From Promethearchaeota archaeon (GTDB lineage: Archaea > Asgardarchaeota > Lokiarchaeia > Sigyniarchaeales > SOKP01), in contig JAFGGO010000173.1 of NCBI GenBank assembly GCA_016930515.1, positions 1 through 56,616 of the forward strand: 56,616 nucleotides of DNA. Reading direction: 5' to 3'. Of this stretch, positions 32,249 through 35,466 are shown in pieces. The position numbers and the translations under genes are program-made. The notes under the pieces are model-generated. The model saw only the letters and a list, made by a program, of their open reading frames with translations. It searched no databases and was not told the origin of the DNA. Position 1 is the stretch's first letter; each line of letters opens with the position of its first letter.

Positions 32249-32704
32249 ATGCATTTGGTTCTCTCTTATTTTCATAGGATCAAAGGTCCCAACATTTACC
32301 TATCTTTTCCTGAGGTTCAACTGGAGCAGGACATCATCAACAAGCTTATGAAATTCTTTGACCTTGATATAAACGAGACATTTTTTGAAATCGTCCTGAT
32401 CAACCGAAAGCGAAGGATTCTGAACCTATATTTCGAAATACCTTCAGAGTGGGCACGAGGAAAAGTCGAAATGGCCATGCTCTCTCTTATCATGAAGATC
32501 GAGTATGATTCTCGCTTGACCTGGTCGTTCTTAATAGATGCTTCACATAAAATTATTTCCACGCCAAACATCTTCAAGGCCTTCTACAAGCACGATGATT
32601 TCAGGGAAGATGATATCGAAATCGATGTGTATTATGAGGGGATAAAAAATATCTTATTTGATTGCTTGGATGGGCTCATCGACCGTATGGAAAAAAAAGG
32701 CTAA
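32249..32704 (+). CDS. Longin/uDENN-like protein
   Basis: N-terminal LVLSYFHRIKGPNIYLSFP resembles the F-H/D-x3-GP start of NPRL2/C9orf72/FLCN longin domains. Confidence 0.6.
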   Translation: MHLVLSYFHRIKGPNIYLSFPEVQLEQDIINKLMKFFDLDINETFFEIVLINRKRRILNLYFEIPSEWARGKVEMAMLSLIMKIEYDSRLTWSFLIDASHKIISTPNIFKAFYKHDDFREDDIEIDVYYEGIKNILFDCLDGLIDRMEKKG

Positions 32705-32757
32705 TCTTTAATTGCTTGTCGCGATACCTATTTATTGGGAAAGCGATGACGAAATAA

Positions 32758-32817
32758 TTGCATTATCGAGGACTTTTAGGACACTTGGATGATTAAAAGT
32801 GCAAACAAATGCAAACA
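32758..32817 (+). ncRNA. H/ACA guide RNA hairpin 1 (K-loop, ACA box)
   Basis: Stem TTGCATT/AATGCAA, pocket ATCGAGG/GCAAACA, upper stem ACTTTTAG/TTAAAAGT, GA..TGA K-loop, ACA at 32815-32817 14 nt after the upper stem. Confidence 0.85.
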
Positions 32818-32845
32818 TTCGGAGTTCCAATAATCAATACTTCCC

Positions 32846-32927
32846 CTGCAATACATATGGGCTCTTTACCAAGCAACGGTGGGAACCAAAGCGATGAGGT
32901 CAGAGTCAGAATTCCCAATTGCAGATA
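32846..32927 (+). ncRNA. H/ACA-like hairpin 2 (variant K-turn, AUA box)
   Basis: Stem CTGCAAT/ATTGCAG, pocket ACATATG/AGAATTCCCA, upper stem GGCTCT/AGAGTC plus ACC/GGT, AA/gatGA K-turn variant, ATA at 32925-32927. Confidence 0.6.
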
Positions 32928-32958
32928 TGATTATTTCCCAAAAGGCGTGCGAGTTAGC

Positions 32959-33035
32959 GCCTGACACGAGAGAACGTTTTTGATGGTAAGGAATCTCCTT
33001 CGCATGAAAAAATCGTGTTAGTGTCTCAGGCAACA
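32959..33035 (+). ncRNA. H/ACA-like hairpin 3 (K-turn, ACA box)
   Basis: Stem GCCTGA/TCAGGC, pocket CACGAGAGA/GTTAGTGTC, ACGTTTTT-GA..catGA-AAAAATCGT K-turn, ACA at 33033-33035. Confidence 0.62.
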
Positions 33036-33089
33036 GCGCACGCTGATTTCAATCAGAAATTAATAATCATTAATATACATTGATTGTTC

Positions 33090-33566
33090 TTAAAATGTGA
33101 GGTCAGAAGAGAGTAATTCTTTCAATTTATCGCTCGAACTCGTCTTATCGTCCTTTAAATATGCAGTTAAGATTTTTGCGATTTGTGGTGCCCATTTCTT
33201 TAAAAGGGCGCGTATGAACCCTATTTGAACATTTGAATCGGTTGCAATGCATAACACACCACTACCAATCTTTGCCGCAAATATCATTCCATCTTGGTAT
33301 TCAGTAATCTGAACGCGAATGCCTCCATATCCCAGAATTTGCCCTTGTTCTTCTCCTGCAACAAATACTGCCCCTCCAATTGCACCAATCTTTTCAACCG
33401 AGGTATCATTGTCGATAAAATGGAACTTTGATTCGTTAAGTATCGTAATACCCGTCTCGTCGATGATGAGTGCGTGTTTTAAACCAGCCGTGCTATTTAT
33501 AATCGTGTTGAGTATTTTTTTTAAAATTTGTTCGTCTTGAGAATATCTCACTTTCATCACTCGCAC
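33090..33566 (-). CDS. Roadblock/LC7 (MglB/LAMTOR-like) protein
   Basis: ALIIDETGITI, IGAIGGAVF, QITEYQDGMIF, VQIGFIR roadblock pattern. Confidence 0.85.
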   Translation of the reverse strand: MRVMKVRYSQDEQILKKILNTIINSTAGLKHALIIDETGITILNESKFHFIDNDTSVEKIGAIGGAVFVAGEEQGQILGYGGIRVQITEYQDGMIFAAKIGSGVLCIATDSNVQIGFIRALLKKWAPQIAKILTAYLKDDKTSSSDKLKELLSSDLTF

Positions 33567-33719
33567 TTTTCACTTCTTTAGGATCGCATTTGGCGTTTTA
33601 TTGCAGAAGCTTGAAATTACACACATAAATTCTTATACATTAAAAATTAAAAAAATTCGTTCAAATAAATTTAGCCATAATTGATATATGTTATCCCCAA
33701 TAGAGAATACAAATTTCAA

Positions 33720-34148
33720 TTAAAAAAGTGTCTGAAGCGATAAAATCTCATCTAGTTTTTTGTTTTTATATTCTGTTTTGGAAATATTCTTCTTTTTTAA
33801 CAAGAGCAGCAATTTAATTGTTTTTTCCTTGTTGAGATCCATGATTAATTTTATATGGTTCGGATTGAAAACCTTGTTTTTTCTATTCGAAATTGCCATC
33901 AAGGCTAATTCATTTTCCAAAAATTTATTAGGGTCGTTTTTTGGAATTTTTGAAGACAAAATAAAACCGTCTTTATCACAAATCACGCCAGCGTAAAATT
34001 GGTCCGAAAGTTTTTTCGATATGTCATGTAAAAAATAATCAACTTCACTTTCGCTAAGTAATTTAACCACGATTAACACTATTGATATTACGATAGTTTC
34101 TTTTGAATAAAAAAATCGTTTTGAATGATAAACCTGAATGTCATTCAA
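33720..34148 (-). CDS. Putative divergent roadblock-like protein
   Basis: AGVICDKDGFILSS motif; the annotated N-terminal ~30 aa may be non-coding. Confidence 0.55.
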   Translation of the reverse strand: MNDIQVYHSKRFFYSKETIVISIVLIVVKLLSESEVDYFLHDISKKLSDQFYAGVICDKDGFILSSKIPKNDPNKFLENELALMAISNRKNKVFNPNHIKLIMDLNKEKTIKLLLLLKKKNISKTEYKNKKLDEILSLQTLF

Positions 34149-34197
34149 GTAATATTTATATGATTATTAATGAAAAAACAAAATATGGAAAAAGCAA

Positions 34198-35172
34198 TTA
34201 ATCTCTCTTTTTTTTGAGGGATATTGATAAGTTCAAGCTTTCAACAAGTTCGGAAAGGCGATTGCGTACAGTCACTTCCGTGACACCTGCTGCTTGAGCA
34301 ATCTCTTTCTGTGTTCTCCGCTCCCTTATGAGCATTGAGGCGGCATAAATAGCTGCGGCACAAAGACCCACCGGAGCTCTTCCAGATGTTAACCCCCTTC
34401 TTTCAGATTCGTTTATAATTTTTTTTGCTACTTTTTGGCACTCGGGACTTAAACGAAGCTCGGATATGAATCGAGGTAAGAAATCAGAAGCCTTGGTTGG
34501 ATTCAGATTCAAGAGTAGTTCCATTGAAATAAACCTGAAAGACCTGCTGATCTCTTTCTTATCAACTCGAGCAACTTCAGCAATCTCGTTTAAGGTACGA
34601 GGAACTTGAAACCTCCTGCACGCTGCGTACAAGCTTGCTGCGGCAACTCCTTCGATGCTTCTACCTCGAATGAGGTGTCTTTCTACGGCGTCCCTATAGA
34701 TTTTTGCGGCGCTTTCGCGCAAGTTTTTTTGCAAGTCGAGATTGGACGCCATCCTATCGAGTTCGCTCAGGGCGAATGTCAAGTTTCTTTCCGTTGCATC
34801 CGAGACGCGAATCCTACTCTGCCATTTTCGAAGCCGATAAATTTGACCTCGCAATTTTGCCGGGATTTCCTTGCCGAAAATATCCTTGTTTTTCCAATCA
34901 ATCATGGTACTCAGGCCCTTGTCGTGGATCATGTAAGTCATGGGAGCTCCCGTCCGAGTTCTCTTTTTTTTTTGATCGGAATCGAAAGCACGCCATTCTG
35001 GACCTCGATCGATGTGTTTTTCGGAATGAACGAGACCACACTCCTCGCAAACCGTATGTCCCCTATTTTCGTCGAAAAATATATGTTTTCCGCATTCAGA
35101 ACAAGTTTTTCCCTCAACAGGCTGTTCCTTCGTGAACATTTTTAATTCTTTCCAGCTCGAAATGAATTGCAC
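34198..35172 (-). CDS. tfb: Transcription initiation factor IIB
   Basis: Zn ribbon [28 protein letters not shown], two cyclin folds, [10 protein letters not shown]; the start may be ATG 35139. Confidence 0.97.
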
Positions 35173-35193
35173 ACCTTCAGGTTGTTGTAATCG

Positions 35194-35466
35194 TTAAGAT
35201 ATTTTGGCATATACGCTTAGATTGGGGTCAAATTCCAGTGATTTATTCGTGCTAATCGAAATAAACGGAAGATCGACCGGTCCAAAAATGTCTTTAATAC
35301 GACCAATTTCGTCGTAATTCTCATCGTAAATCGGTTTTTTAAAGATTTTTTCGAGGTCGCGATTCCATTTTTTCATTCGAAAAATAAGATGTTTTCTTGA
35401 CTTTCCGAGATAAAACAAGTCTAATTTAATCCAGTTTTTCAAGGCTCGAAGGTATCCCACAATCAT
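35194..35466 (-). CDS. gar1: H/ACA RNP protein Gar1
   Basis: IYDENYDEIGRIKDIFGPVDLPFISI; lies directly upstream of tfb, a common archaeal gene order. Confidence 0.85.
   Translation of the reverse strand: MIVGYLRALKNWIKLDLFYLGKSRKHLIFRMKKWNRDLEKIFKKPIYDENYDEIGRIKDIFGPVDLPFISISTNKSLEFDPNLSVYAKIS

What the first reader, a model, noticed from the sequence alone, without database searches (positions are those of the whole stretch)
32758..32817. H/ACA guide hairpin predicted to pseudouridylate the 23S peptidyl-transferase loop at a site also modified in eukaryotes
Seen: canonical archaeal H/ACA geometry, with a 7-bp basal stem, 7x7 pocket, 8-bp upper stem, GA/UGA K-loop (L7Ae site) and ACA 14 nt from the pocket top. 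The pocket predicts the target 5'-UGUUUGC-[U]N-CCUCGAU-3'. From memory, the conserved archaeal 23S segment GUUUGCUACCUCGAUGUCGG fits this, placing the U at the E. coli 2496 equivalent. That corresponds to yeast 25S Psi2865 (snR46-guided), while E. coli has C there. Inference: an Asgard guide for a eukaryote-shared pseudouridine, possibly descended from the same ancestral guide.
Basis: partly seen in the sequence, partly recalled or inferred. Interest (0 to 1): 0.9.

Follow-up and report, generated by a model that had tools for sequence, protein, structure and literature searches.

The report
Asgard three-hairpin pseudouridine guide RNA
The hairpin is a real guide RNA module aimed at one uridine beside the ribosome's catalytic centre, but it is the first third of a longer RNA whose Pyrococcus counterpart was already shown to modify the same site, so it is not a special Asgard-eukaryote link.

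Summary
The hairpin is real and has the stated H/ACA geometry. Its best rRNA match is 23S U2496 (E. coli numbering; yeast Psi2865): 11 contiguous base pairs against 6 for the next site, and 0 of 1000 shuffled pockets reach this. The genome's own target reads GGCUUGC-UU-CCUCGAU, not the remembered sequence, so one side pairs 4 contiguous bp, not 7. The hairpin is motif 1 of a ~308-nt, three-motif RNA (32737-33044, +) found in 53 of 151 Asgard genomes, with strong covariation. Motif 3 fits helix-69 U1915 (perhaps also U1917). Motif 2 fits U2586 but is decayed here, where the 23S has C2586. Distant Asgard copies match Rfam HgcG (Pab40) at E 1e-11, below its cut-off. Pab40 motif 1 was shown to make Psi2588, the same site, already noted as eukaryote-shared in 2008. 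So the site is pan-archaeal, and descent of snR46 is untested. What differs from Pab40: a second kink-turn caps the base of motif 1 in 10 Asgard families, and outer helices enclose motifs 2 and 3 in the host's family and others. This scan found the same RNA before in several other Asgard genomes.

The parts
32691..32713 (+). A-rich BRE-like run and TATA-like element (TTTAATT at 32707-13), overlapping the stop codon of the upstream 151-aa ORF; about 24-30 nt before the RNA's conserved 5' GGG
   Evidence: Sequence; an A-run plus TTT is kept at the same spacing in homologs. Promoter function is inferred.
32737..33044 (+). Whole three-motif box H/ACA guide RNA, about 308 nt
   Evidence: Conserved block in 20 family genomes; model R1 hits 53/151 Asgard genomes; 31 of 62 pairs with compensatory change; metatranscriptome contigs of relatives lie within 32743-33038.
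32737..32739 (+). 5' GGG, pairs with CCC at 32937-39 and closes motifs 1 and 2 into one domain
   Evidence: 96.7% of cells paired, little variation, so weak covariation support (helix 1).
32742..32826 (+). Second, box C/D-like kink-turn enclosing motif 1: C-stem 32742-44/32824-26, 3-nt bulge, GA 32748-49 with GA 32822-23, NC stem 32750-53/32818-21
   Evidence: Covarying helices 2 and 3; present in 10 of 14 Asgard families parsed, weak in one, not found in three; not in the Rfam HgcG consensus.
32758..32817 (+). Motif 1 (the finding): H/ACA hairpin with K-loop, predicted to guide Psi at 23S U2496
32830..32934 (+). Motif 2 inside an outer helix (32830-36/32928-34); lower stem 32846-50/32920-24, internal K-turn, AUA box 32925-27. 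Family target U2586; the 3' guide is decayed in this genome, whose 23S has C2586. A second register fits A-loop U2554.
32944..33044 (+). Motif 3 (hairpin 32959-33031, ACA 33033-35) inside an outer helix (32944-51/33037-44); predicted to guide helix-69 U1915 (16-nt register with a 2-nt bulge) and possibly U1917 (14-nt register)
   Evidence: same 3' guide GUUA as the HgcG consensus. Target site read from relatives' 23S, because the own 23S fragment does not reach helix 69.
35194..35466 (-). Gar1 gene (H/ACA RNP protein), upstream of TFB, in the unit that converges on the RNA gene
   Evidence: Pfam PF04410, E 7e-7; the neighbouring roadblock, 142-aa ORF and TFB genes stay next to the RNA gene in most family loci.

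Best explanation
The hairpin is motif 1 of a single, independently transcribed, three-motif archaeal box H/ACA guide RNA of a Lokiarchaeia (Promethearchaeia) archaeon, the Asgard counterpart of Pab40/Pf7/Afu4. L7Ae binds the K-loop; Cbf5 binds the ACA box and lower stem with Nop10 and Gar1. The two pocket strands pair with 23S rRNA on either side of U2496-U2497 and hold U2496 in the Cbf5 active site, which converts it to pseudouridine at the base of helix 89 in the peptidyl-transferase centre. Motif 3 does the same for helix-69 U1915 (perhaps also U1917). Motif 2 does so for U2586 in most relatives but is probably inactive or retargeted here. The extra basal kink-turn most likely binds another L7Ae and protects or organises the 5' domain. 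Shown: structure, conservation, complementarity, presence of the protein genes, homology to HgcG. Inferred: transcription in this organism, RNP assembly, Psi formation, the role of the cap.
For: Canonical geometry, with the GCA-to-ANA spacing 14 nt in 29 of 31 parsed homologs. Covariation: 91.9% of cells paired, 31 of 62 pairs compensated, 0/500 shuffles and all slid controls far lower. Invariant pocket cores with variable stems. Unique best target in 23S plus 16S, 0/1000 shuffled pockets. Target segment identical in 25 Asgard 23S sequences. Cbf5 with intact GTLD motif, Nop10, L7Ae and Gar1 encoded. Distant homologs match HgcG colinearly, best E 1.2e-11. Pab40 motif 1 makes Psi2588 in vivo and in vitro (PMC2377435); 2588 maps to 2496 by spacing. 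RNA-library contigs of relatives from three studies lie inside the predicted RNA, one bridging motifs 1 to 3.
Against: No Psi map or RNA data for this organism. Only 4 contiguous bp on the 3' guide side, the side reported to matter more (PMC7075261), although the same short side is kept across Asgard. The window's own copy does not hit HgcG directly and no Asgard copy reaches the gathering score (50.5 vs 77 bits). The contigs are from relatives (under 95% identical) and cannot show strand, ends or absence of DNA. The literature disagrees on the target of Afu4 motif 1.
Confidence: 0.88

Rival explanations
1. One reading: an Asgard guide for a site shared specifically with eukaryotes, and the direct ancestor of yeast snR46.
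For: Same rRNA position by spacing. The guide is kept across most Asgard families sampled, so it plausibly existed in the archaeal ancestor of eukaryotes.
Against: The site and its guide exist in Thermococcales, so the sharing is not Asgard-specific. No similarity to snR46 in Rfam. Any guide for this U must carry the same pocket letters, so shared pockets cannot show descent. The RNA has three motifs with K-turns, unlike the two-hairpin eukaryotic form.
Confidence: 0.15
2. Motif 1 binds 23S near U2496 but acts mainly as a folding chaperone or scaffold, not as a productive Psi guide; the basal kink-turn blocks or regulates Cbf5 access to the ACA box.
For: The ACA box is followed within 1 nt by the capping helix, an arrangement not in the HgcG consensus. 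The 3' guide duplex is only 4 bp.
Against: The 14-nt spacing, ANA box and 8-bp upper stem stay fixed in capped and uncapped families alike, which is what selection for catalysis predicts. The ortholog is catalytically active.
Confidence: 0.07
3. The true target is not rRNA but another RNA, for example the transcript of the one genomic site that matches all 14 pocket bases (contig C126).
Against: That match lies antisense to the 290-codon frame there, so the mRNA is not complementary. The outer pocket letters that give the extra pairs vary freely among homologs, while those that pair with 23S are invariant.
Confidence: 0.02
4. Chance hairpin or transcription terminator between two convergent genes.
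For: It lies between convergent ORFs.
Against: Phylum-wide conservation, covariation, three ANA boxes, K-turns, rRNA complementarity and the HgcG match; no terminator-like site.
Confidence: 0.01

Closest known systems
Pab40 / Pf7 / Pho40 / Afu4 three-motif H/ACA sRNA (Rfam HgcG, RF00064), motif 1
   Same: Three motifs in the same order with the same inferred sites: motif 1 Psi2588 = 2496 (shown in P. abyssi), motif 2 position 2678 = 2586 (predicted for Afu4 and Pf7), motif 3 Psi2016 in helix 69 (PMC2377435). K-loop in motif 1. Colinear Rfam match of distant Asgard copies, E 1e-11.
   Different: Basal kink-turn around motif 1 and an outer helix around motif 3 are absent from the HgcG consensus. 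The motif-3 5' guide is GAGAG, not GGUUAG. AU-rich; below the gathering score; the window copy does not hit at all.
Haloferax volcanii sR-h45 (two stem-loops)
   Same: SL1 makes Psi2605 (2586 by my mapping) and SL2 makes both helix-69 Psi (1940, 1942) from one pocket with an unpaired UNUN (PMC7075261); motifs 2 and 3 here fit the same sites, and motif 3 leaves a similar long spacer.
   Different: sR-h45 has no motif for U2496 and has a long spacer instead of enclosing helices.
Yeast snR46 (Psi2865) and snR191 (Psi2258, Psi2260)
   Same: Same rRNA positions (PMC5699541; PMC7075261).
   Different: Separate two-hairpin snoRNAs without K-turns (own knowledge); no sequence or structure match found; shared target is not shared ancestry.
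Composite C/D plus H/ACA RNAs (Pab21; from memory also human scaRNA U85)
   Same: A C/D-like kink-turn motif and an H/ACA hairpin in one RNA; in U85 the H/ACA part sits between the C/D ends.
   Different: Here the 3b-3n pair covaries instead of being U-U, there is no C'/D' pair, and the bases 5' of the D-like element are the H/ACA stem and ACA box, so no methylation guide is evident.

Membership tests
Archaeal box H/ACA guide motif | Hairpin with lower stem, internal pocket and upper stem | tested here: met
   7 bp, 7x7 loop, 8 bp; both stems covary.
Archaeal box H/ACA guide motif | K-turn or K-loop 10 layers (8 bp plus two G-A pairs) above the pocket | tested here: met
   GA 32780-81 and UGA 32790-92 after exactly 8 bp; the AUGA is invariant in 21/21. 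Rule from PMC4652768.
Archaeal box H/ACA guide motif | ANA box 14-16 nt from the pocket top | tested here: met
   14 nt here and in 29 of 31 parsed homologs, 15 in two.
Archaeal box H/ACA guide motif | Bipartite complementarity flanking an unpaired UN in the cognate rRNA | tested here: met
   4 + 7 contiguous bp around U2496 in the own 23S fragment (C11); best of all U in 23S and 16S; 0/1000 shuffles.
Archaeal box H/ACA guide motif | Cbf5, Nop10, Gar1 and L7Ae encoded by the host | tested here: met
   GTLD motif intact.
Archaeal box H/ACA guide motif | Expressed as a stable RNA | tested here: inconclusive
   Contigs of relatives in four RNA libraries from three studies lie within the predicted RNA; no reads of this organism, no strand, DNA not excluded.
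Archaeal box H/ACA guide motif | Directs U-to-Psi conversion | not testable with these tools
   Needs Psi mapping or reconstitution.
HgcG / Pab40 (Rfam RF00064) | Covariance-model score at or above the gathering cut-off (77 bits) | tested here: not met
   Window copy: no hit. Best Asgard homolog 50.5 bits, E 1.2e-11. Hence filed as a homologous Asgard counterpart, not as a formal Rfam member.
HgcG / Pab40 (Rfam RF00064) | Three H/ACA motifs in the order 2496, 2586, helix 69 | tested here: met
   against PMC2377435 Table 1 and section 27. Motif 2 is decayed in this genome.
Box C/D methylation guide | Boxes C and D plus C'/D' with a 10-12-nt antisense element 5' of D or D' | tested here: not met
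   Only a C/D-like kink-turn; the position next to the G-A pairs covaries; the sequence 5' of the D-like element is the H/ACA stem and ACA box.
snR46 / eukaryotic H/ACA snoRNA lineage | Sequence or structure homology beyond the target-dictated pocket | tested here: inconclusive
   No Rfam hit to snR46 up to E 10 for the window or 18 distant homologs; such a search has little power at this distance.

The most novel reading that the evidence does not exclude
Asgard archaea carry an undescribed architecture of the ancient Pab40-type guide, in which each H/ACA motif is nested in a closing helix and motif 1 is capped by a second L7Ae-binding, C/D-like kink-turn that is needed for the RNA's stability or activity; in Lokiarchaeia, motif 2 is also shifting its target from U2586 to the A-loop U2554 (yeast Psi2923), a retargeting that can be followed genome by genome.
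Probability: 0.35. Interest if true: 0.5.

Novelty: new variant of a known kind. Interest (0 to 1): 0.3.

Why it matters
If right, one guide RNA for three core ribosomal pseudouridines has been kept, in the same motif order, from Euryarchaeota to most Asgard families sampled. That dates these guided modifications to before the Asgard-eukaryote split and gives a concrete archaeal starting state for the origin of eukaryotic H/ACA snoRNAs. It fills an annotation gap, since Rfam misses these genes at its cut-off and I found no paper on Asgard H/ACA guides. It does not overturn anything: the mechanism, the site and its sharing with eukaryotes were published for Pyrococcus in 2008. The testable extras are the kink-turn cap and the apparent co-loss or retargeting of motif 2.

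Tried and rejected
Rfam at gathering level on the window: nothing; E-value mode on the locus: chance C/D hits only; HgcG on the own genome: no hit. The second 23S fragment (C72) was rejected as cognate: 66% identical to the family 23S, divergent at the target, beside a LAGLIDADG-like ORF, so probably contamination. The exact 16-mer match on C126 was rejected as a target because it is antisense to the gene there. A strict motif-1 pattern scan of all named genomes gave 15 archaeal hits, all members of this family, and chance bacterial hits, with no Thermococcales; the pattern is strict, so this says nothing about absence, and I could not obtain the Pab40 sequence itself (supplements lack sequences). 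The comparison with Pab40 therefore rests on the Rfam consensus and published target numbers. Model R1 missed family f2, but a pattern search found diverged copies in two f2 genomes; none was found in G055 or G050 with that pattern. A second model from the wide alignment could not be built. No 16S was found in the own assembly, so a relative's was used. Uncovered flanks in the RNA libraries are not taken as evidence, because flanks diverge in relatives. Literature searches for Asgard H/ACA guides found nothing; the search cannot take the slash in H/ACA and misses subscription journals.

Full report
Observation. It folds better than shuffles (z -2.7) and lies in the 385-nt gap between a 151-aa ORF and a convergent roadblock-domain gene. 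A pattern for this geometry occurs once in the 4-Mb genome. Rfam has no match at its cut-off.

Host and cognate rRNA. Close relatives are named Promethearchaeota/Promethearchaeia, so the host is a Lokiarchaeia archaeon (for example L116 lies on a contig of the same length as that of same-genus G005). The assembly holds two 23S fragments. C11 is 83-89% identical to the 23S of family members and is the cognate one; C72 is 66% identical and probably foreign. The cognate target reads GGCUUGC-UU-CCUCGAU and is identical in 25 Asgard 23S sequences. The 5' pocket strand makes 7 bp; the 3' strand makes 4 contiguous bp, then a mismatch and one more pair.

Target. Scanning every U of a family 23S and an Asgard 16S, this site scores 11 and the next best 6; none of 1000 shuffled pockets reaches 11. 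The U lies 45 nt after the A2451 landmark, so it is E. coli 2496 (landmark numbering from my own knowledge). Yeast Psi2826, Psi2865 (snR46) and Um2921 (PMC5699541) are spaced 39 and 56 nt, as are E. coli 2457, 2496 and 2552, so Psi2865 is the same position. That E. coli has C there is from memory, not tested.

The hairpin is one third of a larger RNA. BLAST found the locus in 20 of 36 family genomes, with conservation running about 310 nt. The alignment shows a TATA-like element, a conserved 5' GGG, and three hairpins, each with a K-turn or K-loop and an ANA box. On a hand-built structure, 91.9% of cells pair and 31 of 62 pairs have compensatory changes, above all 500 shuffles and all slid controls (kinship inflates such counts, but the slid controls keep kinship). 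The pocket cores CGAGG and GCA are invariant while the stems vary, the signature of a guide. A covariance model finds the RNA in 53 of 151 Asgard genomes, 24 of 25 in the family and 12 further families, plus f7; diverged copies occur in family f2. Contigs from four RNA libraries of three studies, from relatives under 95% identical, lie only within 32743-33038, and one bridges motifs 1 to 3. This is a weak hint of one discrete transcript, not proof. Cbf5 (GTLD intact), Nop10, L7Ae and Gar1 are all encoded, Gar1 2.2 kb away.

Motifs 2 and 3. Motif 3 pairs with helix 69: GUUA on the 5' side of U1915 and GAGAG with 1920-1924, leaving a 5-nt spacer; a shifted register fits U1917. In distant families the GUUA register sits 14-15 nt from ACA, so U1915 is the conserved site. 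Double use, as shown for Haloferax sR-h45 SL2 (PMC7075261), is possible. Motif 2 carries ACCCAG 14 nt from its box and fits U2586. In this genome the 23S has C2586 and that guide is decayed. All 3 genomes with C2586 lack an intact guide, and 14 of 15 with U2586 keep it. The sample is small, the genomes are related and binning errors are possible. In genus g9 the U2586 guide is gone but AUGGGC and CAGC form a pocket for A-loop U2554 at 16 nt; in most of the family that register sits at 17-18 nt.

Comparison with what is known. Muller et al. 2008 (PMC2377435) describe Pab40/Pf7/Afu4, a three-motif sRNA. Motif 1 makes Psi2588 (CMCT positive, strong in vitro), motif 3 makes Psi2016 in helix 69, and motif 2 of Afu4 and Pf7 is predicted for 2678. 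The Pab35 sites 2549, 2672 and 2697 are stated to be the RluE, RluC and RluB positions (2457, 2580, 2605 by my knowledge), which gives an offset of 92; hence 2588 = 2496 and 2678 = 2586. The paper already names 2588 as conserved in eukaryotes. Directly, distant Asgard members of this family hit Rfam HgcG (Pab40) as their best family, up to 50.5 bits and E 1.2e-11, colinear over all three motifs. This is below the 77-bit cut-off, and the AU-rich window copy does not hit, so the link is transitive through model R1. I read it as orthology (about 85%) but do not file it as a formal RF00064 member.

What differs. A second kink-turn closes the base of motif 1, right after the ACA box. It is present in 10 of 14 Asgard families parsed, weak in one and not found in three, and is not in the HgcG consensus. 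It resembles a box C/D terminal motif but has no antisense element. Outer helices also enclose motifs 2 and 3. I found no paper describing this or any Asgard H/ACA guide, within the limits of the library.

Verdict. The evolutionary framing is not: the site and its guide are shared with Euryarchaeota and were shown there by experiment, and descent of snR46 from this guide is neither supported nor excluded. Earlier notes of this scan on other Asgard genomes reached the same reading; I read them only after my own tests and do not count them as support. New variant of a known kind; interest 0.3.

Noticed in passing
window 32830-32934; L211, L212 (G023, G013): Motif 2 loses its U2586 guide where the 23S has C2586 (3 of 3 genomes; 14 of 15 with U keep it). 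In genus g9 it instead forms a 16-nt-register pocket for A-loop U2554, the position of yeast Psi2923.
   Followed up: partly
L024 (G000:C72) 206-640 and 828-1639: A second, 66%-identical archaeal 23S fragment beside a LAGLIDADG-like ORF and an integrase-like ORF; probably a contaminant contig.
   Followed up: partly
L023 (G000:C11), 23S helix 91: The cognate 23S has a ~31-nt insertion in the helix-91 loop; some family members have similar insertions, and several have larger, intron-like inserts elsewhere in domain V.
   Followed up: no
L063 (G169:C17:42376-42492): A second, partial copy holding only motif 3, with an altered 5' guide, about 500 nt downstream of the full RNA gene.
   Followed up: no
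window 33090-35466: The Gar1-TFB-142-aa ORF-roadblock unit converges on the RNA gene; this neighbourhood is kept in most family loci and, for TFB, in one f2 genome.
   Followed up: partly
   Followed up: partly
L247 (G044), L260 (G047): Diverged copies of the three-motif RNA in family f2, missed by the covariance model; the G044 copy has an extended apical region in motif 1.
   Followed up: partly
L099 (G161): A homolog that has motifs 1 and 3 but lacks motif 2 entirely.
   Followed up: no
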